Under the pieces are notes generated by a model. That model made no database searches and was not told where the DNA came from. It saw nothing but the letters and a program-made list of their open reading frames with translations. A stretch of DNA of 48,901 nt from a virus. Numbering within the stretch: position 1 is the stretch's first letter; every line of letters begins with the position of its first letter. The stretch spans positions 1 to 48,901 of IMG/VR virus record IMGVR_UViG_3300040801_000836. One strand, written 5' to 3'. A program made the position numbers and the translations under genes. Of this stretch, positions 21,336 through 34,725 are shown piece by piece.

Positions 21336-21917
21336 ATGTTAAGCTCAGATATATCTATATGCAATTTTGCTCTGAGCCTCATCGGACAACGCCCTATTCG
21401 TTCGTTTGACGAAGACAACTCCCGTGCAAGGCTATGTAAGAATGTTTACACTACCTCTGTTGAAGTTGTCTTGTCGCGATTGGATTGGGCTTTTGCTCGG
21501 TGGAGGGTCACATTGCGCCAAGATCCAACAGTGGAAACGGATGAAGGGTACGGGGCTTATGCTCTCCCTGCTGATTTTATGAGCGTTATCGACGTAGCAC
21601 CTTTTCACAAGAATACCCCTTACGAACAAATGGGGAATTATCTTATAACCCCTATAGCTGAAGTTGTATCTTTGAAGTACACTCGAAGGGTAGAGGACGT
21701 ATCGAAGTTTGCCACTACTTTTAAGAACGCAGTAGCGTTACTTATGAAAGCGCAACTTGCTGGTCCGCTTGCGGGTGCTTCTCTTAAAGAGATAATGGCA
21801 CTGAACGAATCTTTCGAGTACGAGTTGTTGAACGTATCTGCGATAGATGCAAGCTCCGGTTCAAAAGAAGCGCAGGCCGATAACAGTCCAGATCTAGACA
21901 CTTTCAATAGGGTATAA
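21336..21917 (+). CDS. Head-tail adaptor / tail tubular protein A-like (193 aa)
   Basis: Size and order relative to the following 611-aa gene mirror T7 gp11/gp12. Synteny inference only. Confidence 0.45.
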   Translation: MLSSDISICNFALSLIGQRPIRSFDEDNSRARLCKNVYTTSVEVVLSRLDWAFARWRVTLRQDPTVETDEGYGAYALPADFMSVIDVAPFHKNTPYEQMGNYLITPIAEVVSLKYTRRVEDVSKFATTFKNAVALLMKAQLAGPLAGASLKEIMALNESFEYELLNVSAIDASSGSKEAQADNSPDLDTFNRV

Positions 21918-21922
21918 TAATC

Positions 21923-23758
21923 ATGGCGGTATCTCAAACAAAACACAATTTTACAGCGGGTGAAGTTTCCCCGCTTATTTTTGGGCGACAGGACTTCGAT
22001 AGGTTCAAGAACGGATGCCGCAAGATGAAAAACATGGTGTCTTTGATCCAAGGTCCAACCACAAGAAGATCCGGGTTTCAGTATATGGCCTCTCTTTCAG
22101 ATCTTGGACTTGATCCTGCTGATCCGAAAGTGAGGCTTGTTGAGTTCATATTCAATGAGATACAAGCTTATGTGCTTGTGTTCTTCAAACATACGGATGG
22201 AAGTATTAAGATGGTCGTTGCAGTAGATGATGGCCTTTTGGTGTTTCCAGACCCCGCACCTACTGAATGTCCTGCTGGTAGCGCTTGGTCGGTTACCCCC
22301 GGTGATGTGTTTATTCTCGACATGCCTACCGGGTGGGACATAGACAACTTTACATTCGCTCAGTCTGGCGATAATCTCTATTGTGCGCAAAGCACATTGA
22401 ATCCCCACGTAATAACAAGGCATGATTTTTACTGCTGGTCGGTAGATAGCTTGACATTTACTGACCAACCCTCTGATTGGAGTAACACCTATGGCTGGCC
22501 TGAGACTGTAACGTTCTTCCAACAGCGCCTTGTGTTCGGTGGTAACAAGCTACGTCGCCAGACTGTTTGGTGTTCTCGGTCTGGTGACTTCACTCATTTC
22601 GGGGAGCTTGATCCTGCTGCGTTAGTTGATGCTGATGCGGTATCTTTTACCCTTGATTCTGGCACACAGAATAAGATTCTCTGGATGCAGACTGTAAAGC
22701 AACTGCACATTGGTACTGTTGGTAATGAGTGGATAGTAACAGGGAATGGTCAGAACGCCATAACTCCATCTAGTGTTCTTACGCAGAGTCCAACCAACCA
22801 AGGCAGTCAGAAGATCCGGCCTCTTCGTGTTGGTCTTACTACTCTATTTATAGAGCAGCATGGTCGGGTAGTGAACGAATTTTCCTATGACTATAACTAT
22901 GACAGCTACAAGGCTTCTGATATAACGATACTCGCCCCGCACCTTACAGAGTATTATTCAATCGCTCGGTGGTGCTATCAGCAAACCCCTAACTCTATAG
23001 TGTGGTGTGTCCGTACCGATGGCGCACTTCTTGGTCTTACCTATCAGCGTCAGCACAATGTTGTCGCGTGGCATGTACATGATACAGATGGTGAGTTTAT
23101 TGATGTATGCTCTGTTCCCGGCCAGAATCGTGAAGATGATCTTTGGGTCATAGTAAAACGAGTTATTGAGGGTGAGGATAAATACTACCTTGAAAAGAAA
23201 GCTGAAGACTTCAAAGGAACCGAAGCCGTCGAAGGTAGGTTTCTTGATTCTTTTCTACAGTACGAAGGGGGAGAAGCGTTACTTATTGATGGCCTTGAAC
23301 ACCTTGAGGGTAAGGAAGTGTTCATCTTATCAGACGGATCTGTTCACCCCCCGCGCACCGTTGAAGACGGAAAGATTGTGCTACAAGATGTTGCAACTAA
23401 CGTGTTAGTTGGCCTCTATTACTATTCGGAGGTTAACCCGTTATTGACGGATGCTGGTACAGAGAGGACAGGAACTACCATTACCCGAATACAGAGGATA
23501 CTCGCACTTGCTCTTGAGCTTTATAGATCTCTTGGCTTCGAGGTTGGCACATACGATATTGATGGCGAGGAACAAGTCGAAGAGAAATCTTTCCGCGTAC
23601 CTTCAGACCTCACGAATACCGCACTCCCTTTGTTCACAGGGACGTACAAGGTCGATGGGTTCGAAGGAAGCAGTGACCATGCGGAGTATTTTATAAGGCA
23701 AAGGCAACCATTACCATTGACAGTCATTGGTGTGGTTAATAAACTGGAGGTAAAATAA
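21923..23758 (+). CDS. Tail nozzle / tail tubular protein B-like (611 aa)
   Basis: Synteny inference. Contains an in-frame palindrome (TNVLV). Confidence 0.45.
   Translation: MAVSQTKHNFTAGEVSPLIFGRQDFDRFKNGCRKMKNMVSLIQGPTTRRSGFQYMASLSDLGLDPADPKVRLVEFIFNEIQAYVLVFFKHTDGSIKMVVAVDDGLLVFPDPAPTECPAGSAWSVTPGDVFILDMPTGWDIDNFTFAQSGDNLYCAQSTLNPHVITRHDFYCWSVDSLTFTDQPSDWSNTYGWPETVTFFQQRLVFGGNKLRRQTVWCSRSGDFTHFGELDPAALVDADAVSFTLDSGTQNKILWMQTVKQLHIGTVGNEWIVTGNGQNAITPSSVLTQSPTNQGSQKIRPLRVGLTTLFIEQHGRVVNEFSYDYNYDSYKASDITILAPHLTEYYSIARWCYQQTPNSIVWCVRTDGALLGLTYQRQHNVVAWHVHDTDGEFIDVCSVPGQNREDDLWVIVKRVIEGEDKYYLEKKAEDFKGTEAVEGRFLDSFLQYEGGEALLIDGLEHLEGKEVFILSDGSVHPPRTVEDGKIVLQDVATNVLVGLYYYSEVNPLLTDAGTERTGTTITRIQRILALALELYRSLGFEVGTYDIDGEEQVEEKSFRVPSDLTNTALPLFTGTYKVDGFEGSSDHAEYFIRQRQPLPLTVIGVVNKLEVK
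23395..23410. repeat. Palindrome copy, 2-nt spacer (GT), intragenic
   Basis: Read as TNVLV in the 611-aa ORF. Confidence 0.95.
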
Positions 23759-24651
23759 TGGTAGCGCCGTTAATAATTGCAGCGGGGATAGCTGCTGCTA
23801 CTTCTGTAGGGACTGCGGTTTATCAGAACGCGCAGAATAAGAAGGCTGCTAATGCTCAGAAAGACATAATGATGTCTAACGCAGAAAACCAATATGCTGC
23901 GGAGACATTTAATGCGTTAAAGGATAAGTACGTTTCGGAGATGAACATACGTCTTCTTAACGCCAATCTTGATCTTGAGATTGAAACGAACAATGCCAGT
24001 ATTCTTGCCAACGCTTCACTTATCCAACAGACACAAGAGTTCAATGACTTGCTATATGAACAGGGTGTGATAGAAACTTGGACTTCTGCAAATCTTGATC
24101 TTGAATTACTCGGCTACCAAAGAGCGAGGGAAAGAGGGGCGATAATTGCTAACCAAGGAGCTTCAGGTACGGTTATAGGTGAGGGATCTAACCGAGATGT
24201 AGTGGTTGATCAGATGACACAAGAAGCTCTCGACAAGTATATCATTAAAGTAGGAGCGGATCAGAAGGTTAGAGACTTGACCAATGCTCGATTGCAGTCT
24301 AAGTATCAGGCTGACATGGAGATAAAGAAACTCGCTTATGAAGGTAGGATAGAGAATCGAAATGCGATACTCTCTACTAAGTTTGCAGTGGCAGAAGAGA
24401 AGGCAACAGCGGGAATAGACTACGTTACCAACATGGCGCTTGCTACTATGGGGTATACTGCTGATTCAGATTCAGCGGATAACATTTATGATGCTAACAA
24501 TGCTAAGTCTAAGGCTAATCTTACCGCTGGACTTATAGGCGCAGCAGGCACTATGGGTTCTGCATATTTCAATGCTAAAGCTGCTGGAACCGATACAATA
24601 TTAACGAAGCAGTTTGACGCTTCTGCTGACCACAAGGGGCAACCTAAATGA
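23758..24651 (+). CDS. Internal virion/ejection protein candidate with an N-terminal TM helix (297 aa)
   Basis: MVAPLIIAAGIAAATSVGTAVY hydrophobic start. TAATG coupling. Order resembles T7 gp14-16. Confidence 0.45.
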   Translation: MVAPLIIAAGIAAATSVGTAVYQNAQNKKAANAQKDIMMSNAENQYAAETFNALKDKYVSEMNIRLLNANLDLEIETNNASILANASLIQQTQEFNDLLYEQGVIETWTSANLDLELLGYQRARERGAIIANQGASGTVIGEGSNRDVVVDQMTQEALDKYIIKVGADQKVRDLTNARLQSKYQADMEIKKLAYEGRIENRNAILSTKFAVAEEKATAGIDYVTNMALATMGYTADSDSADNIYDANNAKSKANLTAGLIGAAGTMGSAYFNAKAAGTDTILTKQFDASADHKGQPK

Positions 24652-26663
24652 AAACGACACAAGGACAACTCGCTTCAGGCAGCATAGCAACTGGCGACGC
24701 TGGAACTTTTGCACCAAAACAAGTTAGCACCCGAAGCCCCGGTGTTAACCCTGTGCGTATAAGGTCTAATTCTAAATTAAGATCTACTAATGTCGTCCCG
24801 CAGCCTATGAATTGGGAGGCACAAGAACGGGTGGCGGACTCTATCAACAGCGCAACTAACATGTTAGTTAACTCTGCTGTTAATTATCAGGACCGTGTTG
24901 ATCAACTTGAAGCTGACGAAGCCGTACTTGCCTATCGTAAAATGACCCGTGAAGCTTTCTATGGTAGAGAAGACGAAAACGGTAGACTTGTAGATGGGTA
25001 TGCCCTCACGAAGAATAAGCAGGCACTTGATTCTTACAGTTCATACAATGCCACTGTCGATAAATACGCCGAGGAAGTATTGGCTGGTAGATCCGATTCT
25101 GTAAAGGCTAAAATGCTTCTAAGTATAAAGAGGGAGAATGAGGCTGCGCGGGACAGGGGGATTAACCATAACTATAGCCAGTTAAAATCACATGAAGAGA
25201 ATATCAGAAGACAAGGAAACCTTGACCTGTTGGCAGATATTGAGAAGAATGGTACTTCCCCGTGGAGTAACGGTGCGGTACAGGCGCATCTTGCTAAAGT
25301 TAAAGATGTGGGCCAACGACAGGCCGACGAGGAATACCTAGCTAAGAACACGCTCTTTATGACCTACAACGATGCAAGAGAACTTTCCGCTGGTGATGTG
25401 TTCAACCACAACCCCGCTCAGTCTGCTTACGAGCAGGCTAAAAAAGCATTTGAAAAGATTCGTGGTACGTTATCTGAAGAAACAGAGAGCGCCCTACAGA
25501 ACTGGCTACAGGGTAAAGAGGAAGAAGCTAAACGTGACGATGCCGCACAAAGGACAGTCAATGCTAAGCGGGAGCTGAACGAACTAACCCGCATGGCACC
25601 TGACATATTCGCTGACAGTTTCAGGAACGACGGCAATCCAGCTATCCGCAATTCTCTCGTTGCTGACTTGAGGACGAAGATGGCTGCTGTTTCTGGTGCG
25701 CCTGGAAAGATAGTCGGAATGGTCAAGGATGGCATATCTAACTACGCCACTACTAACGGTGGGGTTACCCTAGCTAACAAGAGAGATGCTGCTATCAATG
25801 CGTACAATTCTATCGTGGAAGGTGGGGGAGACTTCACCACTACGGAACTCCTTGAGTTACGAACCTATGTTATGTCGGAGCTGCCAGCTAAGATCGAGAA
25901 GCAGATGGAGCAGGTAGATAACGTTCTTATAACACAGCGAGATAGGTTGATTGCTGAAGCACAGGCTAAAGGAACATTAAAGGATCTGAAGCTTGATGAC
26001 GTACCACCACCGGGGATGACTGAAAGTGGGTTGGAGAAATTCTATAAGCAAAGAACTGTTTTAGATAACGCCCGAAAAGGTACGTTGTCTAGGTGGAGTC
26101 CAGAAGAAGTACAGGGTCGATTAGATGTATACGATGCTAAGCTTATAACAATGACCATGACTGAATCTGACATAGACAACATACGTGAAGCAACCGTTGA
26201 TGGTCTACTCCCACCGGGAACCCTTGCCAAATATGAAGAAAAGTATATGAAGCAAAAGTCCTTGAATGGGAAGAAGATGCCTTGGCAAGCAGACCCACGC
26301 TACCAAGGTGCATTAGCCGGTGTACGAAATTCAAAGCAGCAGTTAACAGGATTACCATTACCGATAAAACCTTCTACCACAAAAGAGAGTAGGTTGCTTG
26401 AGTTTGAGAAAGAGAAGAGTGCTTTTGAAATGGCCGCTGAAAAAGCAATGGCTGATGCCATCATTGACCTTGAGAGCAAGGCTCTTGATGCCTACAAGAA
26501 AGGTGTGGACTTCGATGCAACTAAGTGGTGGGAGGATTACATAACTAATGTTGTTAACAAGGGATCAAAGGTTAAGTCAAGCTTCTGGTCACAGTTAAAA
26601 GGTCAATGGTCTTTCGACATTTTTGGTAATTCTCAAGATCTAAAAAGTGGAGTGATGGAATAA
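24648..26663 (+). CDS. Internal virion/ejection protein candidate (671 aa)
   Basis: Long, helical and charged, and coupled to both neighbours. Contains an in-frame palindrome (TNMLV). Confidence 0.45.
   Translation: MKTTQGQLASGSIATGDAGTFAPKQVSTRSPGVNPVRIRSNSKLRSTNVVPQPMNWEAQERVADSINSATNMLVNSAVNYQDRVDQLEADEAVLAYRKMTREAFYGREDENGRLVDGYALTKNKQALDSYSSYNATVDKYAEEVLAGRSDSVKAKMLLSIKRENEAARDRGINHNYSQLKSHEENIRRQGNLDLLADIEKNGTSPWSNGAVQAHLAKVKDVGQRQADEEYLAKNTLFMTYNDARELSAGDVFNHNPAQSAYEQAKKAFEKIRGTLSEETESALQNWLQGKEEEAKRDDAAQRTVNAKRELNELTRMAPDIFADSFRNDGNPAIRNSLVADLRTKMAAVSGAPGKIVGMVKDGISNYATTNGGVTLANKRDAAINAYNSIVEGGGDFTTTELLELRTYVMSELPAKIEKQMEQVDNVLITQRDRLIAEAQAKGTLKDLKLDDVPPPGMTESGLEKFYKQRTVLDNARKGTLSRWSPEEVQGRLDVYDAKLITMTMTESDIDNIREATVDGLLPPGTLAKYEEKYMKQKSLNGKKMPWQADPRYQGALAGVRNSKQQLTGLPLPIKPSTTKESRLLEFEKEKSAFEMAAEKAMADAIIDLESKALDAYKKGVDFDATKWWEDYITNVVNKGSKVKSSFWSQLKGQWSFDIFGNSQDLKSGVME
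24854..24869. repeat. Palindrome copy, 2-nt spacer (AT), intragenic
   Basis: Read as TNMLV in the 671-aa ORF. Confidence 0.95.
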
Positions 26664-29600
26664 TGGCTAAAGTAACGCAGGAAGAGTACGACAGGTCTTT
26701 GGCCGAGAGTCAACAACTCGTAGCTGACATAGAGAACATGCAAGCCAATAAACCTTGGCAGGCAGGTATAGTGGACGATGACACCGAATATCCTCTCTCG
26801 CAGGCGAACGAGCCACCAAAGGATAACCTACGCAAGAGCCTGTTAGCCCCTCTCACACCGATTGAAGGAGGGGCAACTAACAAGTTAGTTAAGACCCCTC
26901 AAGCTCAGTCGCTACGGAAAGATGCACCCCCCTTCTTCGATGAAGAGGGGCTTTCGCCGTTTAGCACTACGGAGCAGCAGGAGCAGGCACCCGCTACGAC
27001 AAGGCCGGATTTCACCCCAAGGTACGAAGGACCACCAATTGACCCACGCACTAACAGACCTTTCGGTGACGTACCGGAAGAAGAGATTCAGAAGGAGATG
27101 CTTGAAGCACTCTCAGCTAAGTTATCTGTTGGTAACTTCGACATGGACGATAAGTGGGCTAGGGTGTTGGCTAAGTCTGTACCGGAGATAGCACAGCATT
27201 ACCCTAATATCCTTGAGGTAATGAATGTCCATTATCAGTACATCAAAGAAGCTATGGAAGCACACAGGCTGATGTATGAGATAACTGGACCTGATGACGA
27301 GGAAGGTATCAAGAGAGCAGTTGAGGCGAGGGATAAGTCCATGCAGACCCGCCAGCAACTACCACTTGAGTACCCTATGAATGGGATCGTACACGAGACA
27401 TTGAGAGCAATGGCTGAAACAGGTGCGAGCTTCGTAGATATAGCCAAAGATGCTGGTCCCGGTGCTGCCGTTGTTGTTGGGATGGGTGCTGTGGCTGGTG
27501 GCCTTGCGGGTGGTCTTACTGGTGCTCCTGGTCAGGGTGCGCTGTGGGGTGCCAAGACTGCTATGAAGTTTGGTGTGCCAATCAAGATGTTTGAGTCAAT
27601 GCAACGACAGGGTACTGGTGAGTTCCTGCTTGATATGATGGCACCTATTGAGGAAGGACAAGAGCCGATACCTTACGCTATAGCTAGGCCGATAGCTGAG
27701 AAGTACGCCGTTCCCTATGCCATACTCGAAACAACAGGTAAGATTGCTGAAGTTATTGCAGGCTTTGGGTTTACTGCCACGATATCGAAACGTGTTGTAG
27801 CACTCGCGGCTGAAGGTGGGACAGAGTGGGGACAGACCCTTATTCAACAGATAGGACTGTGGGCCGCTCAGAAGGAATTTGCAAGAGTCAAGAACTCTCC
27901 TTTCGATGTGAAGGTAGAGGACATACTTGATTACCATGAGGCTAAGCTTGCTGCGAGACTGGCTATTCTTGGTACGGGTGGTATCAGTATAGCTACTTCA
28001 CCTATCACAATACCGTTTGCCACTAAGCGTATGCTCACTGAGTACAATCGAAGGAAAACGTTTAATGAGATTAGGCGTGACCTCAAGAGATTGGAGGACT
28101 ACAATAAAAAGATCCTTGACGACAACAAAGATAAGCCTATCGACGATGTTACTGACGAGGCAACTAACACGTTAGTTACGGGTGAACCGATAGATCCTGC
28201 GGAGATTGGTGACGTTGCTAATGAGCCTATCCTTGCAGGCACCGACATAACAGATGATAAGATTGATGATCTCGTTGTTACTGATGATGCTGACTTGGAT
28301 GATGCCCTTGATGCCATAGATAGCGGTATTGAAGATTCCTACGATGACGTAACCGCCGCTTTCTTCACTGGTATGCGTGAGCATTTCAAGGATGAAGAAC
28401 ATGTGGGCATGGTCGAGGGGTTGATTACTGCCAGAGCGCAGGCGGAAGGGATGAGCCTTTCTCAGTACATGGAGAAGCGTGGCCTCACCTTTGAGAAAAT
28501 CAATACCGATGCTGATATGGTGGGTGCATACACCTATTTCAGTGAAGAGGGTAACACCATTATTACGGCTTTCAATAACGCTAACATCGTTGACGTTATA
28601 TCGGAGCTTGGTCATGTGTTCAGGATGGACCTTGACGAGAAGCAACAGGCCATAATGGATAAGTTCGTTGGTGTGGATATCGGATCAGAGTGGGACGGTG
28701 CAGCAAACGAGACATTCTCCCAAGGTTGGGAGCAGTACCTAGCCACAGGTGAAGCACCTTCGCATGAGCTTAAAGGTCTATTTCAAAAGCTGAACTCTTG
28801 GATAACCAAGATTTACAAGACTATCCGCAAGATGGATGTTCCTAATTTGGATATCCCGCCCGAGATGATGGAGGTGTATGATAGCTTACTCGTTAAGAAA
28901 ACTGTTGCAGACGGTAACGCCACCAGTGTTAATGATGCGAAAGCAGATAGCAAGCTCAATAAGCCAACTATCGAAGAACCACCAGAAGATATCACGACAA
29001 CAGATGATATCGAAGAACCCCCTGAAATTGGTGAAGATGACATCATCGACGAGACTCCTGAGCCTCCTACTATTGATGAAGAGGACATCGTCGAGACACC
29101 AAAGGAACCTAAGAAAAAGAAGATAGTCAAAAGGTTCAAGATCAACACTCGCGGTATATCGGGATTCGGCTCTACAACACAGAGCGAAGCAGACTACACC
29201 CCAACAGGTATGCGTGGTGAAAGGGACATTTTCGACGATATAACAGGGGATGAAAATAGCGCGGCTGATGTTGCTCAGTGGTACATTGATAATGGCGATC
29301 AAGAGCAGCAGATAATAGCTAACCGCATAATCGGCCTGTTACGAGATATACCTTTCACAGTAGTAGAGCTAAATACGCACTATGACAACAACGTACCAAC
29401 TGACATGGAGAACGCTCTTGGGTTGTATGTCCCTGACGAGCAGACTCAAAGAGCCGCTGTTTTCGTTCGTGGTAAGTCGTGGGGTGATAGAGCAGCAAGC
29501 AACGAGACACCCTTACATGAGTTGGTACACGCTGCTACTTGTATGCGAATCTACGAGGCCCGTGATTTAATTGCACAGGGAGTAGATAACACTCTTACTC

Positions 29601-32600
29601 GCAACTACATTGCCCTTGAAACATTCAGGGATCAGTTGTCTGCACTGGTGAAGTCACAGTATCAAGCAGGCGCACAGACAGGCAATCATACGATAAGTAT
29701 GGATATGCCCATATCTGGCTTTAAGAAGGATACCGAACTCATAGCCTATGGTATGACCAGTAGGAGTTTTCAAGAGTGGTTGGCTACTGTTAACATGCGT
29801 ATGATAGACGCACACGGAATGTCTAAGCCTGTTAGGGCTATAACTAAATTCGTTCGTGTCATTCGTGCTTTACTAGGTATCCCTGCAAGTGAGGAAACCG
29901 CTCTTATTCGCGTAATGCAGTTCGGTGAGATATTCATGCGAACACAGAAAGAGCATACCGCCAAACAAAAGGCCGCTTCTACTGCTAGTGGTATAAAGAA
30001 GACGGATCAAGTAGAGTGGGAAGGAGAGGCAACTAACACGTTAGTTGAAGCTGAGAAAGCGGAGAAGGCACGTAAGGAGCCAACGGCTGATGCACTTGTT
30101 GAACGTATAAAGAAAGAGCGTGAAGCAAGAGAACGCGCAATGGCCGCTTACGATGCAGCTATAGCCAGTAAGATCAAAGCAGGCACGACTGCCAAGGTTG
30201 CCGCTAGGATACAGCAGAAAGCTATGGTCCGGGCAATGAAGGCGTTGTTCGACGCTGGTGACCTACACGGTTACCGAGTTGCTAGGGACCACTTCAAGGC
30301 CATTCTTGCAAGGGAGAGAGCAAAGGCTGCGGCTGTAGCTAAGCACAAAGCCCTTCGTAAGAGTATAATGACGAAGCTCGAAAAGGGTATGCCAAGTAAG
30401 ATACACGGCAAGCTTTACGTGAAGATCAGTCCAGAGATGTCCAAGTTGTTCCGTGACGTACTGAAGGTTCTTCACCCATTGAAAACCAATAAGCAGATAC
30501 GAGAACTTTATGATATCAGAATGGGAGGACAATTCGACGCGTATGCAATGGCTAAAACGGACGCTGATTATATTATTAATACTTTTCTCGATGGGGCTGT
30601 TTCACGTAACGCATCAGGTGTCAGAATTTTGGAGAACCTTAACGAAGCGTTAGCCCTGCTACTCTCCGGTGAATCTCAGCTTTCTCCGATGATGAAGAAG
30701 AAGGCCGAGATAGACAGGATGCGTCCTGAGATAATTAACAGTATTAATGGTGGTAACGTTGTCGATTCACCACTTACGGATACTAAGCTCTTGCACGAAC
30801 AACGTAAGAAGCAGAAGACGCGGCGTGAGTATTGGGCTACGTGGACTGTAGGACACAAGAATGTCTTTGGTCTTACGGGATTGATAAAGCTTGCCACAAG
30901 CTACACCCCCGGTTCTCAGTCTGCACTGTCTAAGATGTGTAACTTCTTCGAAGCGAAACAGCGGAAGATGACTCGTATCCGCGAGGAACAGGCGAAGATA
31001 ATGGAGATGTATATCCGTTCATTTGGTCTGGATAATAAGAAGACTAAGTATGCCCTATTCAAGAAGTGGGCTGAAGACACAAAACCTGTTCACCGTATTG
31101 CTGGTGTTGATATGGGCAAAGCACAAGTGCGTCAGATATGGATGTACATGCAAGACCCAACGCTAACTAACAGGTTAGTTATGCAGTTTATGGACCCTAA
31201 AGATAGGGCTAAAGTAAAGAAAGATCTTACGGATGAAGAGATTGATGAGATAGAAGCCGCCGCCTTAGAGAACTACGATAACATTGTTAACCAAGTTAAC
31301 GAGATTCTGACCGACGAAGACAAGGCTTTTGCTCAATTGCTCATGGGATATTTCAATAGCGATGAGCAGTACGAATATGTTAATCGTGTACATAAGATTG
31401 TTGCAGGACTTGAGCTAGGCAGGATAGAGGGCTACGTTCCTATCCGTGCAGAGAACTACCTCAACATAACTGAGCAGTTGGACAGAGGGCATGAAGCATC
31501 ACAGTTCAAACATGATGACTATATCAGGAAAACCCCTCAATCAGCTAAGAGTATACGTGAACGAGCCAAGAACGCTGACAGGTTCCAGATGCGATTCGAT
31601 GGAGACATAACGCTATTCAATTCTTACACCGAAGAGATGGCACACTATGTGAACTTTGCGGAACAGGCTCAGCTTGTTAAGATTGCGATTGAGGATAAGG
31701 ATATCCGTAGGGCTATTGAAGTAGAATATGGCAGGGACGTGTACAATTCTATAGTTAGCGCCGTTGAAGATGTGCTTGCAGATGGTATACATAACCAGAA
31801 GCAGTACCCTCTAATGGATAAGTTTAGGGCTACATTTGTTCGTTCAACAATTGGAATGGCTACCAGTGTATTCTTAAAACAGCACATTTCTATAGTGCAG
31901 TATGCTCAACATATGCCTGTTTTAGATTTTACAAAGGGCATGGCCGTGTTTTGGAAAAATCCTATTGACAATTTCTCTGAAATGATGGATACTGATTTCA
32001 TCAAAAACAGAAAGAACTCAATGGACAGGGACATGAAACAGACTGCTACCTCTGCTGAGTATAAGCGGTGGCGATTGAATCCAACACTGTCTAATCTTAT
32101 AACTCTTAACGTCACTCTTGGCGATTCAAGTGCCATCATCCAAGGTGCATGGGTATACAAAGAGTATCTGAAGACACAAACCAACCCTGCAACGGGGAAG
32201 AAGTATACCAACAAGGAAGCACTGGCCGAAGCTTTCAATAAGTCTAATGCTACACAACAGTCCGGTGACATGCAGGAGTTGTCATGGACTCAGCGCGGTG
32301 GCTCTGCAATGCAGTTAATGACCATGTACTCCACTGGTCCTATACAGGCGCTACGGCAGGAGATCGAAGCAGTGAGAGACTACGCGGCGGGCAATATAAG
32401 CAAGGCGCAGTTGCTCAAGACCCTTGCTATCTACCACGTAATCGTACCTTCAATGTTCGCTATGGTGTCTGGACTTATGACCGGAAGGGAAGAGGATGAT
32501 TGGTTGAAGGCTCAGCTATTAGCGGCGGCACTTGGTCCTTTCAGCGCAATCTACGGAGTTGGTGAAGTTATCAGTAATGTCACAAGTGGGCTGCTTGGGA

Positions 32601-32836
32601 TGAGGGTGTATCCGGCTGAAGGGTTACTTTCCGATGCCATATACGGCACATATAAGTTCCTCAAAGATTGGACAACAGGCGAAGATCTATCTATTGAGGA
32701 TTGGTCTAAACTGTTCCAATCGATAATGATGTTCACGGGGCATGGAGTACCGACAACTAGAATTACCCGCGTAGGTGAGAACCTTGCTGAAGGTAACGTA
32801 ACAGGAGCGCTCTTGCAACAACGAGTTGAAGAGTAA
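26663..32836 (+). CDS. Giant virion protein (2057 aa) with an HExxH zincin motif, Gly-rich and C-terminal hydrophobic segments
   Basis: Single open frame in the track. PLHELVHAATCMRIY (HExxH), a GxxxG-rich segment GMGAVAGGLAGGLTGAPG, and acidic IEEPPE repeats. It holds four in-frame palindrome copies. The stop abuts palindrome 32835..32849. Confidence 0.8.
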   Translation: MAKVTQEEYDRSLAESQQLVADIENMQANKPWQAGIVDDDTEYPLSQANEPPKDNLRKSLLAPLTPIEGGATNKLVKTPQAQSLRKDAPPFFDEEGLSPFSTTEQQEQAPATTRPDFTPRYEGPPIDPRTNRPFGDVPEEEIQKEMLEALSAKLSVGNFDMDDKWARVLAKSVPEIAQHYPNILEVMNVHYQYIKEAMEAHRLMYEITGPDDEEGIKRAVEARDKSMQTRQQLPLEYPMNGIVHETLRAMAETGASFVDIAKDAGPGAAVVVGMGAVAGGLAGGLTGAPGQGALWGAKTAMKFGVPIKMFESMQRQGTGEFLLDMMAPIEEGQEPIPYAIARPIAEKYAVPYAILETTGKIAEVIAGFGFTATISKRVVALAAEGGTEWGQTLIQQIGLWAAQKEFARVKNSPFDVKVEDILDYHEAKLAARLAILGTGGISIATSPITIPFATKRMLTEYNRRKTFNEIRRDLKRLEDYNKKILDDNKDKPIDDVTDEATNTLVTGEPIDPAEIGDVANEPILAGTDITDDKIDDLVVTDDADLDDALDAIDSGIEDSYDDVTAAFFTGMREHFKDEEHVGMVEGLITARAQAEGMSLSQYMEKRGLTFEKINTDADMVGAYTYFSEEGNTIITAFNNANIVDVISELGHVFRMDLDEKQQAIMDKFVGVDIGSEWDGAANETFSQGWEQYLATGEAPSHELKGLFQKLNSWITKIYKTIRKMDVPNLDIPPEMMEVYDSLLVKKTVADGNATSVNDAKADSKLNKPTIEEPPEDITTTDDIEEPPEIGEDDIIDETPEPPTIDEEDIVETPKEPKKKKIVKRFKINTRGISGFGSTTQSEADYTPTGMRGERDIFDDITGDENSAADVAQWYIDNGDQEQQIIANRIIGLLRDIPFTVVELNTHYDNNVPTDMENALGLYVPDEQTQRAAVFVRGKSWGDRAASNETPLHELVHAATCMRIYEARDLIAQGVDNTLTRNYIALETFRDQLSALVKSQYQAGAQTGNHTISMDMPISGFKKDTELIAYGMTSRSFQEWLATVNMRMIDAHGMSKPVRAITKFVRVIRALLGIPASEETALIRVMQFGEIFMRTQKEHTAKQKAASTASGIKKTDQVEWEGEATNTLVEAEKAEKARKEPTADALVERIKKEREARERAMAAYDAAIASKIKAGTTAKVAARIQQKAMVRAMKALFDAGDLHGYRVARDHFKAILARERAKAAAVAKHKALRKSIMTKLEKGMPSKIHGKLYVKISPEMSKLFRDVLKVLHPLKTNKQIRELYDIRMGGQFDAYAMAKTDADYIINTFLDGAVSRNASGVRILENLNEALALLLSGESQLSPMMKKKAEIDRMRPEIINSINGGNVVDSPLTDTKLLHEQRKKQKTRREYWATWTVGHKNVFGLTGLIKLATSYTPGSQSALSKMCNFFEAKQRKMTRIREEQAKIMEMYIRSFGLDNKKTKYALFKKWAEDTKPVHRIAGVDMGKAQVRQIWMYMQDPTLTNRLVMQFMDPKDRAKVKKDLTDEEIDEIEAAALENYDNIVNQVNEILTDEDKAFAQLLMGYFNSDEQYEYVNRVHKIVAGLELGRIEGYVPIRAENYLNITEQLDRGHEASQFKHDDYIRKTPQSAKSIRERAKNADRFQMRFDGDITLFNSYTEEMAHYVNFAEQAQLVKIAIEDKDIRRAIEVEYGRDVYNSIVSAVEDVLADGIHNQKQYPLMDKFRATFVRSTIGMATSVFLKQHISIVQYAQHMPVLDFTKGMAVFWKNPIDNFSEMMDTDFIKNRKNSMDRDMKQTATSAEYKRWRLNPTLSNLITLNVTLGDSSAIIQGAWVYKEYLKTQTNPATGKKYTNKEALAEAFNKSNATQQSGDMQELSWTQRGGSAMQLMTMYSTGPIQALRQEIEAVRDYAAGNISKAQLLKTLAIYHVIVPSMFAMVSGLMTGREEDDWLKAQLLAAALGPFSAIYGVGEVISNVTSGLLGMRVYPAEGLLSDAIYGTYKFLKDWTTGEDLSIEDWSKLFQSIMMFTGHGVPTTRITRVGENLAEGNVTGALLQQRVEE
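26875..26890. repeat. Palindrome copy, 2-nt spacer (AA), intragenic
   Basis: Read as TNKLV in the giant ORF. Confidence 0.95.
28162..28177. repeat. Palindrome copy, 2-nt spacer (AC), intragenic
   Basis: Read as EATNTLV in the giant ORF. Confidence 0.95.
30031..30046. repeat. Palindrome copy, 2-nt spacer (AC), intragenic
   Basis: Read as EATNTLV in the giant ORF. Same 21-nt context as the copy at 28162. Confidence 0.95.
31165..31180. repeat. Palindrome copy, 2-nt spacer (AG), intragenic and followed by ATG
   Basis: AACTAACAGGTTAGTT-ATG, read as TNRLVM in the giant ORF. Confidence 0.95.
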
Positions 32837-32849
32837 CTAACAGTTAGTT
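32835..32849. repeat. Palindrome copy, 1-nt spacer, intergenic
   Basis: The giant ORF's TAA stop overlaps the left arm. SD AGGAG follows. Confidence 0.95.
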
Positions 32850-32865
32850 ATAGGAGAATACAAAC

Positions 32866-33981
32866 ATGACAGTTTCAGCACAGTCACCTGTTGTTACTAG
32901 GGTGTACACTGGTCCCGGCGACTACGATTTTGACTTCTTAGTTTATGATGTAGCGAACTTGGAGATGACAATCGTAGATACGTCTGGTGTTCCTCAAACA
33001 TTAACCGTAGCTAACTACTCAGCAGTTACCTTGTCTCCGAATCCCGGTGGCACCGTTACGATTACCGATGCTCTTGGTGTGTTGCCTTTAGGTACTCTGT
33101 ACATTCGTCGCACACTGGCGTACCAGCAGACTATCGATTGGATCAATAACGAAGCGTTCAACATGGAGTTGCTTGAACGTTCGCAAGATCAGATGGTTAT
33201 GATGCTACAGCAGATTGACAGTATTGTAAAGGATGCTATGCTGCTGAGTACGTGGCGGGGTACTTGGGTTACACCTGTAACCTACAACGCCAAGGATCTT
33301 GTTGTTGCACCTAATGGTAACTGGTACGCCTGCTTAGAGACACACACTTCGGATGACTTCACTGCTGACTTAGCGGCGGGTTATTGGGTACTGGCTCTTG
33401 ATCTTGCAGCGGTAACTGCACTGAGGGACGAGTGCCTTGGCTACGCAGAAGACACAGCAGCCGACCTTGTACTGACAAATGCTGATGTGGTACTTACCCA
33501 CGCAGACGTTGTTCTCACTAATGCAGATGTGGTACTTACCCACGCTGATGTTGTCCAGACTGGTCTTGACCGCGCTGCTACTGCCGCTGATTTGGTGCTG
33601 ACTAATGAAGATGTCGTTACAACTCAAGGGCTTGTTGATTCGATTGACACACCAACTATTCTCCGTAAGGATGCAGACACAGGTGCCGCAATACTTCCAC
33701 CGGGAACAACAGCACAACGTCCTTCTGTACCATCTGAAGGTATGCTCAGGTACAACACAGATCTGAAATCTTTTGAGGGTTACGCCGATGGGGTGTGGGG
33801 TACTGTTGGTGGTGGTGCTTCCGGTGCAGTCCAGAACCCTGTATTCTACGAGAACGACACTAACGTAACTGGCGACTACACCATTACTACTGGCAAGAAC
33901 GCTGTGAGTGCAGGACCGATTGAGATAGACGATGACGTAACCGTGACTGTTCCTGATGGCTCAGTCTGGACAGTGGTGTAA
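32866..33981 (+). CDS. Tail fibre protein (371 aa)
   Basis: Heptad ADVVLT(N/H) repeats. C-terminal LPPGTTAQRPSVPSEGMLRYNTDLKSFEGY is a segment widespread in phage fibres (from memory). Confidence 0.75.
   Translation: MTVSAQSPVVTRVYTGPGDYDFDFLVYDVANLEMTIVDTSGVPQTLTVANYSAVTLSPNPGGTVTITDALGVLPLGTLYIRRTLAYQQTIDWINNEAFNMELLERSQDQMVMMLQQIDSIVKDAMLLSTWRGTWVTPVTYNAKDLVVAPNGNWYACLETHTSDDFTADLAAGYWVLALDLAAVTALRDECLGYAEDTAADLVLTNADVVLTHADVVLTNADVVLTHADVVQTGLDRAATAADLVLTNEDVVTTQGLVDSIDTPTILRKDADTGAAILPPGTTAQRPSVPSEGMLRYNTDLKSFEGYADGVWGTVGGGASGAVQNPVFYENDTNVTGDYTITTGKNAVSAGPIEIDDDVTVTVPDGSVWTVV
33478..33561 (+). repeat. 4 x 21-nt tandem coding repeat (NADVVLT/HADVVLT), i.e. 2 x 42 nt
   Basis: Units at 33478..33498, 33499..33519, 33520..33540 and 33541..33561, read directly. 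Confidence 0.85.
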
Positions 33982-33994
33982 CTAACAGTTAGTT
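33980..33994. repeat. Palindrome copy, 1-nt spacer, intergenic
   Basis: TAACTAACAGTTAGTTAAGGAG. Confidence 0.95.
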
Positions 33995-34005
33995 AAGGAG
34001 ATAAT

Positions 34006-34725
34006 ATGAGTGTAACAATAGACGGTTTACTTGGTATATCCAAGGTAGCCGAAGAAGCAGATGTTGTACATGAGGGAGACTTCGGGGTAGGAGGTATATG
34101 CACAGCCAATGTAATCGACTTCAACACCTACCCTGATTCAATAGGAGTTAAAGGGCACTTACCTTACGTGGTGTCGGAGAATGGCTCAACTAATGGTCCA
34201 CCGAACGGAGGGGTATTCTTTTTCGTACAACATTTCTTTTATATCAATGGTAACTGCGTACAGATAGCATGGCCTTATTACAGCAACCAAAGCATGTGGA
34301 TCAGAAAGCGCTTTAATGAGGTGTGGACACCATGGGTCCAGCAGTATGATCAGCAGAACATACTCGGCACAGTCAGTCAGTCCGGTGGTGTACCCACAGG
34401 AGCAATCATTGAGCGGGGTGAGAATGGTAACGGGGAGTATATCAAGTTCGCAGATGGTACGATGATCTGCAAGAACGTACTATCGTACACGGCGGCCCTT
34501 GTCGCACTCGGATCTTTATATGCTAATACGGGACTTGAGCTTTGGACATTCCCGGCTGAGTTTGCTGAAAGGCCAGTTGTTACCGCCTCCGATACTGGCT
34601 CGGTGAATGTCTGGTTTCATTGTTCGGCGGCGACTGCTGATGCGGATTTGAGGGTATTCAGTTATACGGCTTCAATAACTGGTACAAGATACATTGATAT
34701 TTTGGCAGTAGGGAGGTGGTTCTAA
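34006..34725 (+). CDS. Receptor-binding/tail fibre paralogue 1 (239 aa)
   Basis: Shares ILGTVSQSGGVPTGAIIERGENGNGEYIKFADGTM and a C-terminal AVGRWF with the next two genes. Confidence 0.75.
   Translation: MSVTIDGLLGISKVAEEADVVHEGDFGVGGICTANVIDFNTYPDSIGVKGHLPYVVSENGSTNGPPNGGVFFFVQHFFYINGNCVQIAWPYYSNQSMWIRKRFNEVWTPWVQQYDQQNILGTVSQSGGVPTGAIIERGENGNGEYIKFADGTMICKNVLSYTAALVALGSLYANTGLELWTFPAEFAERPVVTASDTGSVNVWFHCSAATADADLRVFSYTASITGTRYIDILAVGRWF

What the first reader, a model, noticed from the sequence alone, without database searches (positions are those of the whole stretch)
26663..32836. One extra base converts an all-frame stop cassette into an in-frame T-N-x-L-V linker; four such copies lie inside the 2057-codon ORF
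Seen directly. With a 1-nt spacer and its usual T/A flanks (TAACTAACNGTTAGTTA[A]) the element carries stop codons in all three frames on both strands. With a 2-nt spacer exactly one frame per strand is open, and it reads Thr-Asn-x-Leu-Val. All 11 intragenic copies are of this type: primase 694 and 2038; 608-aa ORF 11220; portal 17183; scaffold 18764; 611-aa ORF 23395; 671-aa ORF 24854; giant ORF 26875, 28162, 30031 and 31165. Nine of the eleven are preceded by GC, giving Ala (ATNxLV). Most lie in hydrophilic or low-complexity stretches that look like interdomain linkers, for example after the T/P/D-rich scaffold N-terminus or in acidic segments of the giant ORF. I infer one of two things. Either the element is maintained inside genes under coding constraint, or large ORFs arose by fusion of neighbouring genes when a junction palindrome gained one base. 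The second case would make the copies fossil gene borders.
Basis: partly seen in the sequence, partly recalled or inferred. Interest (0 to 1): 0.7.

Follow-up and report, generated by a model that had tools for sequence, protein, structure and literature searches.

The report
Phage-wide palindrome array, translatable inside genes
A 49-kb phage genome carries one exact 14-16-base palindrome about every 1.2 kb, and where long genes leave no gap between genes the same palindrome sits inside the gene in its only translatable form (Thr-Asn-x-Leu-Val), so the four copies in the giant gene are working DNA sites rather than mostly relics of old gene borders.

Summary
The window has 22 copies of YAACTAAC-N-GTTAGTTR, 17 copies with a 2-nt spacer, and one copy with no spacer; chance expects about 0. 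All 11 copies deep inside genes have the 2-nt spacer and read T-N-x-L-V.

Related phage contigs (40-75% aa identity) carry the identical palindrome. At orthologous in-frame sites the arms are 100% identical in 19 of 19 comparisons, while the flanks are 54% identical. Every TNxLV peptide is encoded by the palindrome. Selection therefore acts on the DNA, not on the peptide.

The in-gene copies fill the gaps left by the copies at gene borders. Random placement matches the observed evenness in 0 of 20,000 trials. Orthologous border sites switch between 1-nt and 2-nt spacers. The flanking Y/R positions show no pairing covariation, and the RNA hairpins are weak.

The best reading is a genome-wide array of sites for a symmetric phage-encoded DNA-binding protein whose action has a limited reach of about 3 kb or less. 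The protein was not identified.

The "fossil gene border" idea fits giant copy 1, which lies at the gene's 5' border in relatives, and perhaps copy 3. It fails for the nozzle, giant copy 4 and other copies that lie in conserved blocks.

The closest precedent is the 17-bp palindrome of Cluster O mycobacteriophages, whose function is unknown.

The parts
26663..32836 (+). 2057-codon ORF: giant virion or ejection-type multidomain protein, weakly related to polyvalent proteins. It lies downstream of the portal-capsid-nozzle module.
   Evidence: ORF list. Pfam and PHROG context of the neighbours. Distant homologues carry LPD/ART-PolyVal Pfam domains. Two shared modules, aa ~600-750 and ~1200-2050.
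26875..26890 (+). In-frame copy 1 (AACTAAC-AA-GTTAGTT), codons 72-76, T-N-K-L-V.
   Evidence: In A, B and L008 the orthologous copy lies at codons 3-11 of the gene, at the gene border. The window has 71 extra N-terminal codons.
28162..28177 (+). In-frame copy 2 (spacer AC), codons 501-505, T-N-T-L-V. An acidic low-complexity stretch follows.
   Evidence: Position conserved in A and B, arms 100% identical, flanks 65-70% identical.
30031..30046 (+). In-frame copy 3 (spacer AC), codons 1124-1128. It sits at the C-terminal edge of a window-specific insert of about 360 aa that contains an HELVH motif.
   Evidence: A and B lack both the palindrome and the insert. The insert domain occurs in 183 library proteins, mostly inside giant proteins and a few times alone.
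31165..31180 (+). In-frame copy 4 (spacer AG), codons 1502-1506, T-N-R-L-V, inside the conserved C-terminal module.
   Evidence: Conserved in A and B. It follows the QDPTL motif shared with the distant homologue P0003. A weak AF2 model places it in a short helix.
32834..32850 (.). Border copy (1-nt spacer) whose TAA is the stop codon of the giant ORF. An SD (AGGAG) and the next start follow within 17 nt.
   Evidence: The orthologous site in A and B has a 2-nt spacer.
694..709 (-). In-frame copy in the primase-helicase ORF, codon 572 (T-N-T-L-V).
   Evidence: Conserved in A and B.
2038..2053 (-). In-frame copy in the primase-helicase ORF, codon 124. A and B instead have a copy at codon ~254.
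11220..11235 (+). In-frame copy in the 608-aa ORF (codon 283). This ORF is part of a window-specific 3.6-kb insert between TerS and TerL.
17183..17198 (+). In-frame copy in the portal (codon 198), in a variable stretch.
   Evidence: Shared only with L033, with 21 identical nt. Absent in A, L002, L008, L006 and L011. Aligns next to gaps against PDB 8ck0.
18764..18779 (+). In-frame copy in the scaffold-like protein (codon 42), between the T/P/D-rich repeat N-terminus and the conserved body.
   Evidence: Present at the same place in all 8 genomes compared. The x residue varies among M, V, T, P and K.
23395..23410 (+). In-frame copy in the nozzle protein (codon 492), inside the conserved block VLVGLxFxSxVxP.
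24854..24869 (+). In-frame copy in the 671-aa protein (codon 70), with conserved residues on both sides.
41030..41043 (-). Single 0-spacer variant (CACTAAC-GTTAGTT), in frame (T-N-V-S) in the SNF2 helicase. Window-specific and next to an indel.
37873..37909 (+). Border copy embedded in a GC-rich stem followed by a T-run: a likely intrinsic terminator at the end of the + strand operon.
   Evidence: Sequence. Fold -18.1 kcal/mol, z = -6.8.
3496..48016 (.). The other members of the array. 1-nt border copies, given as ACTAAC start: 3498, 4696, 6357, 6418, 8039, 8276, 9028, 10061, 12217, 20373, 33981, 36349, 36975, 38689, 40186, 42433, 42829, 44840, 46179, 48002. 2-nt copies at borders or starts: 5934, 8729, 13696, 15306, 39164, 47536.
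   Evidence: Junction layout: 11 of 28 overlap the upstream stop codon, 19 of 28 have a gene start within 45 nt downstream, and 14 of those have an SD-like motif.

Best explanation
The four copies in the giant ORF are ordinary members of a genome-wide array of one recognition site, 5'-YAACTAAC-N(1-2)-GTTAGTTR-3'. There are 40 copies in this circular 48.9-kb ε15/T7-type podophage genome.

Shown:
- The site is kept exact by selection on the DNA itself, in genes and between genes.
- It normally sits at cistron junctions, in the order stop codon, palindrome, SD, start.
- Where long genes leave gaps of several kb, an extra copy sits inside the gene. It then uses the 2-nt-spacer form, whose one open frame per strand reads T-N-x-L-V.
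- The 1-nt and 2-nt forms replace each other at orthologous sites, so they are functionally equivalent.

Inferred:
- The site is read as duplex DNA by a symmetric (dimeric) protein encoded by this phage lineage.
- That protein acts along the whole chromosome through a process with limited reach, so a site is needed at least every 2-3 kb. Candidate processes are nucleation with spreading or bridging, or stoperator-like roadblocks to RNA polymerase.
- Because the sites are identical and lie at cassette edges, they also serve as joints for cassette and domain exchange between related phages. This is a by-product.
For: Not chance.
- 39 perfect 7+7 copies against about 0 expected, and almost no degenerate copies.

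Same element in relatives.
- Contig A has 7 copies with a 1-nt spacer and 22 with a 2-nt spacer; contig B has 5 and 22.

Selection acts on the DNA.
- Arms are 100% identical in 19 of 19 orthologous in-frame comparisons.
- Flanks are 54% identical, and third codon positions 20-75%.
- All TNxLV peptides are palindrome-encoded, against 0.24 expected. The probability of the codon choice is about 0.0025 per site.

Spacing.
- CV of the gaps is 0.50 against 0.96 for random placement (P<5e-5). The largest gap is 3023 nt against a random mean of 5217.
- With border sites fixed, random internal placement reaches the observed largest gap in 0.08% of trials and the observed CV in 0 of 20,000 trials.
- 10 of 12 internal copies lie in genes longer than 1.5 kb.

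Spacer equivalence.
- Orthologous border sites switch between 1 and 2 nt: after the capsid gene, after the giant ORF, after the VWA gene, downstream of the polymerase, and between the SSB and exonuclease genes.

Duplex and symmetric reading.
- Position -8 is Y and position +8 is R in 117 of 117 copies.
- In the 73 2-nt copies the four combinations are independent (CG 16, CA 21, TG 18, TA 18), so there is no pairing covariation.
- There is no orientation relative to transcription.
- RNA hairpins are only -2 to -5 kcal/mol.
- Solitary half-sites occur at the chance level, 11 against about 12 expected.

Lineage-specific, not a host signal.
- 51 single hits in 185,579 species genomes, none with a second copy.
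- A cultured ε15-like relative has no such array.

Cassette edges.
- A 3.6-kb insert between TerS and TerL is bounded by two copies where A and B have one.
- A has three copies where B has one.
- 9 of 28 ends of A-B homology blocks lie within 40 nt of a copy, against about 1.6 expected.

Precedents.
- Cluster O 17-bp palindromes (PMC4351075) and Cluster A stoperators (PMC6550527).
Against: - No binding protein was identified. Pfam, PHROGs and NCBIfam gave no HTH, RHH or ParB-type hit among the ORFs scanned.
- The one candidate followed up, the early K/A/P-rich 392-aa protein, is clade-specific but has no DNA-binding fold match.
- No integrase or repressor was found, so a lysogeny-type silencing role has no support.
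- Many rigid dimers do not tolerate a 1-bp change in half-site spacing; a hairpin loop would.
- Part of the evenness of spacing follows simply from sites lying at gene borders.
- One 3.0-kb gap (capsid to nozzle) is conserved although intergenic space is available within it.
- The association with cassette edges cannot be separated from the association with gene borders.
Confidence: 0.45

Rival explanations
1. Fossil gene borders. In-frame copies are former junction palindromes that gained one base and so fused neighbouring genes into large ORFs.
For: - Giant copy 1 is at the 5' border of the gene in A, B and L008, overlapping or beside the upstream stop codon. The window has 71 extra codons before it.
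- Copy 3 lies at the edge of a window-specific domain that occurs as a stand-alone 180-450-aa protein in about a dozen library entries.
- Border sites do interconvert between 1-nt and 2-nt spacers.
- The scaffold copy separates a variable repeat N-terminus from the conserved body.
Against: - The nozzle copy lies in a strand-like block conserved in homologues without the palindrome.
- Giant copy 4 is inside a module that is contiguous in 22%-identical homologues.
- The 671-aa, primase-572 and giant-2 copies have conserved residues on both sides.
- No relative has a split gene at any copy.
- A fossil would decay, yet the arms are 100% conserved at synonymous positions.
- Portal and nozzle are single-chain proteins in solved relatives.
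- The 71-aa and 360-aa segments have no separate-gene counterpart in the relatives fetched.
Confidence: 0.1
2. Recombination linkers. The identical palindromes exist mainly as short-homology joints at which the phage's exonuclease and annealing proteins swap gene cassettes and protein domains between co-infecting relatives.
For: - Cassette indels are bounded exactly by copies: the window's 10061...13696 against a single site in A and B, and A's 38965/39573/39818 against B's 27895.
- Ends of homology blocks are enriched near copies.
- Portal copies in the window and L033 share an identical 21-nt stretch although the proteins are 50% identical.
- A Cas4/RecB-like exonuclease, a gp2.5-like annealing protein and a VRR-NUC nuclease are encoded.
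- The same inference was drawn for the Cluster O repeats.
Against: - Selection for evolvability is unlikely to hold 16 bases invariant at every site, including sites inside conserved fold cores such as the nozzle and giant copy 4.
- No site-specific recombinase was found.
- 14-17 nt is short for homologous exchange.
- The association with cassette edges is confounded with gene borders.
- It does not explain why internal copies fill gaps so evenly.
Confidence: 0.2
3. Hairpin signal in single-stranded nucleic acid. The element acts as a 7-bp stem with a 3-4-nt loop. It would act either on the lagging-strand template as a priming signal for the phage primase-helicase (spacing of 1-2 kb is about the size of an Okazaki fragment), or in mRNA as the target of an RNA-binding protein or RNase at cistron junctions.
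For: - A 1-nt or 2-nt spacer is easily tolerated as a 3-nt or 4-nt loop.
- Mean spacing is 1.2 kb in the window and 1.6 kb in A, and the gaps are filled.
- A palindrome presents the same sequence on both strands.
- Junction copies lie right before the SD.
- One copy forms the tip of a real terminator.
Against: - The stems are weak, -2 to -5 kcal/mol, and not better than shuffles for in-frame copies.
- There is no covariation at the Y/R positions that would extend the stem; C·A mismatches are as common as pairs.
- Absolute sequence conservation with no compensatory variants argues for sequence recognition rather than structure.
- Cleavage or termination inside long ORFs would be harmful.
- No T-run follows, except at 37882.
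- Rfam finds nothing.
Confidence: 0.15
4. Protein-level motif. T-N-x-L-V is itself functional, for example as a protease cleavage or docking motif in virion proteins, and the DNA palindrome is secondary.
For: 9 of 11 in-frame copies are in virion-module proteins.
Against: - Codon choice is invariant (ACT AAC nnG TTA GTT) at every site in every genome.
- The same DNA occurs 28 times outside genes in the window.
- Homologues without the palindrome have other residues at the position: SSVVV, STKRLA, NDTFI.
Confidence: 0.02

Closest known systems
Cluster O mycobacteriophage 17-bp repeats (5'-TGTTCGG-NNN-CCGAACA; Corndog and relatives; PMC4351075)
   Same: - Invariant 7-bp inverted arms around a short variable spacer, with more than 30 copies per genome spread throughout.
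- Many copies are between genes and about one third are inside coding regions.
- No meaningful orientation relative to transcription.
- Indels are flanked by copies.
- Phage not obviously temperate, and the function is unknown.
   Different: - The sequence and host lineage are unrelated.
- The spacer is fixed at 3 nt there and is 1 or 2 nt here, with the length tied to whether the site can be translated.
- Here the site is built into the stop-SD junction.
- Here it is conserved across genomes only 40-75% identical in protein; the Cluster O genomes are close relatives.
- Here internal copies demonstrably fill gaps.
Stoperators of Cluster A mycobacteriophages (L5, Bxb1; PMC6550527)
   Same: 20-30 copies of one short site throughout the genome, mostly not at promoters. 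In that system they are bound by a phage protein that blocks elongating RNA polymerase.
   Different: - Stoperators are asymmetric, bound by a monomer, and oriented with transcription.
- Their motif co-varies with the repressor between subclusters.
- Those phages are temperate.
- Here the site is a palindrome with no orientation, is invariant across the clade, and no repressor or integrase was found.
Chromosome-wide palindromic site arrays for DNA-organising proteins (Noc-NBS, SlmA-SBS, MatP-matS, KorB-OB); from memory, not tested
   Same: Tens of copies of a 12-16-bp palindrome distributed over a replicon and read by a dimer that spreads, bridges or acts at a distance.
   Different: Those arrays are cellular or plasmid systems with known proteins. 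No ParB-, TetR- or RHH-type protein was detected here, and the density here (1 per 1.2 kb) is far higher.
Rickettsia palindromic elements inserted in frame in genes; from memory, not tested
   Same: A palindromic repeat that is compatible with translation and found inside unrelated protein-coding genes.
   Different: RPEs are 100-150 bp, add a peptide segment and are regarded as selfish insertions. Here 5 codons replace residues without adding length, and the sites are under strong purifying selection.
Polyvalent proteins of phages and conjugative elements (for the giant ORF itself)
   Same: - A giant protein encoded by the virion module and built of modules that recur in other giants in the same order.
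- Distant hits carry PF18798, PF18760 and PF18834.
- The aa 821-1123 domain occurs in 183 proteins, mostly of 2000-4000 aa.
   Different: No Pfam domain passes threshold in the window protein itself. Membership rests on weak similarity over two modules.

Membership tests
Phage genome-wide invariant palindromic repeats (Cluster O type) | Two invariant ~7-bp inverted arms separated by a short variable spacer | tested here: met
   39 perfect 7+7 copies and only 3 degenerate ones. The spacer sequence varies.
Phage genome-wide invariant palindromic repeats (Cluster O type) | More than 30 copies spread over the whole genome, both intergenic and within coding regions | tested here: met
   40 copies: 28 outside genes or at gene edges and 12 inside genes.
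Phage genome-wide invariant palindromic repeats (Cluster O type) | No orientation relative to transcription | tested here: met
   Central bases A/T and AC/GT occur in both transcription directions.
Phage genome-wide invariant palindromic repeats (Cluster O type) | Sequence homology or shared ancestry with the Cluster O repeat | tested here: not met
   A different sequence (AACTAAC against TGTTCGG), a different spacer length, and an unrelated phage type with an ε15-like capsid. It is the same kind of feature, not the same family.
Stoperators (Cluster A mycobacteriophages) | Asymmetric 13-14-bp site oriented with transcription | tested here: not met
   The site is a perfect palindrome with no orientation. 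Definition.
Stoperators (Cluster A mycobacteriophages) | Cognate immunity repressor and temperate life style | tested here: inconclusive
   No repressor, integrase or ParA/B was detected by Pfam, PHROGs or NCBIfam. Many small ORFs have no annotation. Distant capsid relatives are temperate Uetakevirus.
Stoperators (Cluster A mycobacteriophages) | Bound protein blocks elongating RNA polymerase | not testable with these tools
   Needs EMSA or ChIP and transcription assays.
Intrinsic terminators / REP-like stabilising hairpins | Stable G+C-rich stem, with a T-run for terminators | tested here: not met
   -2.3 to -5.5 kcal/mol, z from -0.1 to -2.1, and no T-run. The one exception is the 37882 copy, embedded in a larger GC stem followed by a T-run.
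Host genome-wide signals carried by phages (uptake sequences, Chi, REP) | The motif is over-represented in a host genome | tested here: not met
   Only 51 single matches in one genome each of 185,579 species. No fetched stretch has a second copy or a relative of the phage.
In-frame selfish palindromic insertions (RPE type) | The element adds a segment relative to homologues that lack it | tested here: not met
   No gap at the TNxLV position in the nozzle or portal alignments; the residues are replaced, not added.
Fused genes with a fossil junction | Orthologues split into two genes at the palindrome, or the copy lies at a domain boundary with no conservation across it | tested here: not met
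   There is no split orthologue in A, B or L008. Conservation spans the nozzle, giant-4, 671-aa, giant-2 and primase-572 sites. Partly met for giant copy 1, which is a border in relatives, and for copy 3, which is at the edge of an insert.
Polyvalent proteins (giant ORF) | Giant multidomain protein with recognised LPD, ART-PolyVal or peptidase domains | tested here: inconclusive
   No Pfam family passes in the window protein. Homologues at 22-35% identity over two modules carry PF18798, PF18760, PF18834 and PF18819. The HExxH-containing domain aa 821-1123 recurs in giant proteins.

The most novel reading that the evidence does not exclude
The phage chromosome carries a 'ruler'. An unidentified process with limited reach requires one exact recognition site at least every ~3 kb; candidates are nucleation and spreading or bridging of a phage DNA-binding protein, or site-specific priming. 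The requirement is strong enough that protein-coding sequence, including conserved fold segments of the nozzle and the giant ejection protein, is forced to spell T-N-x-L-V to supply the site. The choice of a 1-nt or 2-nt spacer lets one element serve either as a six-frame stop cassette at gene junctions or as a translatable pentapeptide inside genes.
Probability: 0.35. Interest if true: 0.8.

Novelty: new variant of a known kind. Interest (0 to 1): 0.6.

Why it matters
Arrays of one invariant short palindrome throughout a phage genome have been described once in detail, in Cluster O mycobacteriophages, and their function is still unknown.

This clade adds three things that make the question testable:
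- The same site is conserved across genomes whose proteins are only 40-75% identical, which gives a clean signal of selection at the nucleotide level.
- The internal copies demonstrably fill gaps, which points to a process with a reach of about 2-3 kb.
- A one-base change in the spacer converts a six-frame stop cassette into a translatable pentapeptide. This shows how a DNA signal and a protein sequence are reconciled, even inside conserved structural proteins.

There are also practical points. Gene callers and readers should not take in-frame copies for gene borders. The identical sites at cassette edges are natural joints for the mosaic exchange seen between these phages.

Tried and rejected
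- Close relatives of the giant ORF. Megablast against cultured phages found nothing. A protein-pattern scan of viral contigs with the single protein found nothing. The word-indexed protein search gave only homologues at 23% identity or less.
- Metagenome scans. The protein-pattern scan found no relative.
- A further viral-contig scan with the AC-spacer form found no new clade member. Only three full giant ORFs could therefore be compared (the window, A and B).
- Host signal. The genome scan gave chance hits only.
- Literature search for the sequence itself found nothing relevant. The φC31 conserved-inverted-repeat precedent could not be checked in the library and is left as memory only.
- tRNA and Rfam searches found nothing.
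- Binder search. Pfam, PHROGs and NCBIfam on almost all ORFs gave no DNA-binding family. PDB sequence searches of two candidates were empty. The early 392-aa K/A/P-rich protein has only 3 homologues, all in the clade. Its AF2 model has a confident N-domain, but Foldseek against the PDB gave nothing below E=1.
- AF2 of giant aa 1200-2057 with 7 distant homologues was poor (pLDDT 44.7), so it says little about linkers.
- Rejected ideas:
  - Serine or tyrosine recombinase core sites: no recombinase is encoded, and a 1-nt spacer is incompatible.
  - Primase recognition of a linear half-site: solitary half-sites occur only at the chance level.
  - Xanthomonad LexA box and similar motifs: the half-site orientation is wrong.
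  - Internal translation starts in the spacer codon: ATG or GTG is not conserved between orthologous sites.

Full report
WHAT IS THERE

The window is a complete, circular phage genome of about 48.9 kb. The primase-helicase ORF runs off position 1 and continues in frame at the other end of the window; contigs A and B have the same protein as one 964-codon ORF.

The structural module has a T7-type portal (PF12236), an ε15-type capsid protein (PF20911) and a nozzle protein. Three large proteins of 297, 671 and 2057 aa follow. Replication genes are a family A polymerase, an SNF2 helicase, a Cas4-like exonuclease, a gp2.5/Enc34-type SSB and a VRR-NUC nuclease. No RNA polymerase, integrase or repressor was recognised. 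Minus-strand early genes and plus-strand late genes diverge from a non-coding region at about 7.9-9.5 kb and converge at about 37.9 kb.

THE OBSERVATION

ACTAAC-N-GTTAGT occurs 22 times, ACTAAC-NN-GTTAGT 17 times and the 0-spacer form once. No other spacing occurs. Shuffles give 0.00 and 0.10 matches. Extended to 7+7 bases there are 39 perfect copies and only three with 1-2 mismatches.

TAACTAACNGTTAGTTA has a stop in every frame on both strands. The 2-nt form leaves one open frame per strand, reading ACT AAC NNG TTA GTT. All 11 copies deep inside genes have the 2-nt spacer. Over ten genome pieces of the clade, 0 of 44 1-nt copies but 34 of 73 2-nt copies lie at least 40 codons deep in open frames.

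Minor corrections:
- Six 2-nt copies are not deep in genes.
- A 0-spacer copy lies in frame in the helicase.
- Ala precedes the motif in 7 of 11 sense readings, not 9.
- A 1-nt copy with a C flank could in principle be read as Q-L-T-V-S, but none is.

RELATIVES

Exact-pattern scans of IMG/VR found a small clade that carries the same palindrome. It comprises contig A (47.5 kb, fully recovered), contig B (45.5 kb, mostly recovered), L008 (13.6 kb) and several fragments. Proteins are 40-75% identical to those of the window. A and B carry mostly the 2-nt form (22 each, against 7 and 5 of the 1-nt form), including at gene borders.

Orthologous border sites differ in spacer length between genomes. 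This is seen after the capsid gene, after the giant ORF, after the VWA gene, downstream of the polymerase, and between the SSB and exonuclease genes. The two forms are therefore interchangeable in function.

SELECTION IS ON THE DNA

At seven orthologous in-frame positions the 12 arm bases are identical in all 19 pairwise comparisons with the window. The positions are the scaffold in 8 genomes, the nozzle in 4, the 671-aa protein, giant copies 2 and 4 and primase codon 572 in 3 each, and the portal in 2. The 60 flanking bases are 54% identical, and third codon positions are 20-75% identical.

The x residue is free; in the scaffold it is M, V, T, P or K. All 13 TNxLV peptides of the window and all 21 in long ORFs of A and B are encoded by the palindrome. 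Amino-acid frequencies predict 0.24 such peptides, and the codon choice has a probability of about 0.0025 per site. The peptide exists because of the DNA, not the reverse.

THE SITE IS 8+8 AND IS READ SYMMETRICALLY

In 117 copies the base before AACTAAC is always a pyrimidine and the base after GTTAGTT is always a purine. In the 73 2-nt copies the four combinations occur independently (CG 16, CA 21, TG 18, TA 18), so C·A mismatches are as common as pairs. This is what two equivalent half-sites YAACTAAC on duplex DNA would give. It is not what an extended stem would give.

Further points agree with this:
- The RNA hairpins are weak, -2.3 to -5.5 kcal/mol.
- Solitary half-sites occur at the chance level.
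- There is no orientation relative to transcription.
- One copy, at 37882, forms the tip of a strong GC stem with a T-run and probably ends the late operon.

JUNCTION LAYOUT AND GAP FILLING

Of the 28 copies outside genes, 11 overlap the stop codon of the upstream gene. Nineteen have a gene start within 45 nt downstream, and 14 of those have an SD-like motif in between. Three 2-nt copies with spacer AG, which gives AGG, are followed at once or within 5 nt by ATG.

The 40 sites are far more evenly spaced than random. The CV of the gaps is 0.50 against 0.96, and the largest gap is 3023 nt against a random mean of 5217. Contig A behaves the same way. With the border sites held fixed, the largest gap would be 12.5 kb. 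Random placement of 12 internal copies in coding DNA reaches the observed largest gap in 0.08% of trials and the observed CV in none of 20,000 trials. Ten of the 12 internal copies are in genes longer than 1.5 kb. The internal copies are therefore gap fillers, and whatever reads the site needs one at least every 2-3 kb.

THE FOUR COPIES IN THE GIANT ORF

Copy 1 (codon 72). In A, B and L008 the same copy lies at codons 3-11 of the gene, for example M-T-TNTLV in B, and it overlaps or adjoins the upstream stop codon. The window has 71 extra N-terminal codons in front of it. This copy is a former border site.

Copy 2 (codon 501). It is conserved in A and B and lies before an acidic low-complexity stretch.

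Copy 3 (codon 1124). It is found only in the window. It lies at the C-terminal edge of a window-specific insert of about 360 aa that carries an HELVH motif. That domain occurs in 183 library proteins, mostly at the same relative place inside proteins of 2000-4000 aa, and about a dozen times as a stand-alone protein of 180-450 aa.

Copy 4 (codon 1502). It is conserved in A and B. It directly follows a QDPTL motif that is also present in a 22%-identical homologue, inside a module that is contiguous in distant giant proteins. A low-confidence AF2 model puts it in a short helix.

Other genes. The nozzle copy lies in the block VLVGLxFxSxVxP. That block reads SSVVVGL in L017 and AAVVHVGL in the solved nozzle 8ck1, both of which lack the palindrome. 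The portal copy lies in a variable stretch. It is shared only with L033, with 21 identical bases, although the two portals are 50% identical.

Maintenance under double constraint is right. Fossil borders fit copy 1 and possibly copy 3 and the scaffold copy, but not the others. No relative splits a gene at a copy.

CASSETTE EDGES

The window has a 3.6-kb insert between TerS and TerL. It is bounded by copies at 10061 and 13696, where A and B have one copy. A has three copies with two small cassettes where B has one. Nine of 28 ends of A-B homology blocks lie within 40 nt of a copy, against about 1.6 expected. This matches what was inferred for the Cluster O repeats. It cannot be separated from the fact that copies sit at gene borders.

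WHAT IT IS NOT

- It is not a host signal. There are 51 single hits in 185,579 species genomes and none with a second copy.
- It is not a general feature of ε15-like phages.
- It is not in Rfam and is not a tRNA.
- It is not known by its sequence in the literature.

MECHANISM

I commit to the following. The site is an operator-like target for a symmetric, phage-encoded DNA-binding protein. That protein acts along the whole chromosome with limited reach, either by spreading or bridging from nucleation sites or by stoperator-like roadblocks.

Shown: the array, its exactness, its selection at the DNA level, its symmetry, the equivalence of the two spacer forms, and the gap filling.

Inferred: duplex recognition by a dimer, and the nature of the process.

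Unknown: the protein. Family searches found no candidate. The early, clade-specific 392-aa K/A/P-rich protein gave no fold match.

Rivals are the hairpin in single-stranded DNA or RNA (priming or an RNA-level role), recombination linkers, fossil borders, and a peptide motif. They are weighed in the rival-explanations section of this report.

COMPARISON AND NOVELTY

The nearest described thing is the Cluster O mycobacteriophage 17-bp palindrome. It has invariant 7-bp arms, 34 copies, one third of them in genes, and an unknown function (PMC4351075). Stoperators are the nearest functional model but are asymmetric and oriented (PMC6550527).

New here are the dimorphic spacer tied to translatability, the integration of the site with the stop codon and SD, the deep conservation across the clade, and the quantitative evidence for gap filling. 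I rate it a new variant of a known kind, of moderate to high interest.

Noticed in passing
window 7900-9560: Stretch of about 1.6 kb with no convincing ORF between the divergent early (-) and late (+) gene blocks. It holds four palindrome copies (8039, 8276, 8729, 9028), several other direct-repeat families (35-nt x2, 34-nt x2, 23-nt x2, 22-nt x2, ATGTGTGACATGT x4) and an excess of sigma-70-like promoter matches (15 against 6.5 expected). It is probably the control region and/or the replication origin.
   Followed up: partly
window 37873-37909: A palindrome copy forms the tip of a GC-rich hairpin (GGCGCA...TGCGCC, -18.1 kcal/mol) followed by CTTTTT. This is a likely intrinsic terminator at the convergent junction of the late operon and the minus-strand genes. 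A similar extended form, ACTAACTAACTGTTAGTTG, occurs at 6414-6432.
   Followed up: partly
window 1-2421 and 48296-48901 (minus strand): The primase-helicase ORF runs off the left end of the window and continues in frame from the right end, and A and B encode it as a single 964-codon ORF. The contig is therefore a closed circular (or permuted) genome. The '184-aa ORF' at 48296-48850 is the C-terminal part of the primase-helicase.
   Followed up: partly
window 10061-13709: A 3.6-kb window-specific insert lies between the small terminase (9581-10039, HTH-like N-terminus) and the large terminase (13715). It contains an 88-aa ORF, the 608-aa ORF and two small ORFs. It is bounded by palindrome copies on both sides, where A and B have one copy followed at once by the TerL ATG.
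   Followed up: partly
window 29123-30031 (giant ORF aa 821-1123) and 28460-28910 (aa ~600-750): The giant protein has two HExxH-type regions. The window-specific domain carries HELVH and recurs in 183 library proteins. The shared module reads SELGHVFR in the window but HELGHVFR in contig B, so the first His is lost in the window.
   Followed up: partly
window 39177-39515 (minus strand): A conserved 112-aa protein has a Cys4 pattern, CxCGK-x13-RRPHYCNKNC. By eye this resembles the YacG-type (gyrase inhibitor) or FCS-type zinc finger. Pfam gives no hit even at E=10, so this rests on the sequence pattern only.
   Followed up: partly
window 6675-7853 (minus strand): The first gene downstream of the early promoter region encodes a 392-aa protein with a long Lys/Ala/Pro-rich, histone-H1-like central region between two conserved domains. 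It has only three homologues in 5.8 billion proteins, all from this clade. The AF2 N-domain is confident (pLDDT 65-86) but has no PDB fold match.
   Followed up: yes
window 18642-18764: The N-terminus of the scaffold-like protein consists of imperfect tandem repeats of (T)TTPDA. It ends exactly at the in-frame palindrome. In relatives this segment is equally low in complexity but unrelated in sequence.
   Followed up: partly
window 13696, 15306, 47536: Three 2-nt copies have spacer AG in the sense orientation, so the loop reads AGG. ATG follows at once or within 5 nt, as if the spacer supplied a minimal SD for TerL, the 15321 ORF and the exonuclease gene. In A and B the TerL ATG also abuts the palindrome, but with spacer GT or AC.
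   Followed up: no
window 41030-41043: This is the only 0-spacer variant (CACTAACGTTAGTT). It is in frame as T-N-V-S in the SNF2 helicase, in a window-specific stretch next to a 6-residue indel relative to A and B. It could be a decayed or a functional third spacing class.
   Followed up: partly
window 42841-44829: The DNA polymerase gene (2.0 kb) is the only gene longer than 1.5 kb without an internal copy. The same holds in contigs A and B, and copies flank it closely on both sides.
   Followed up: no
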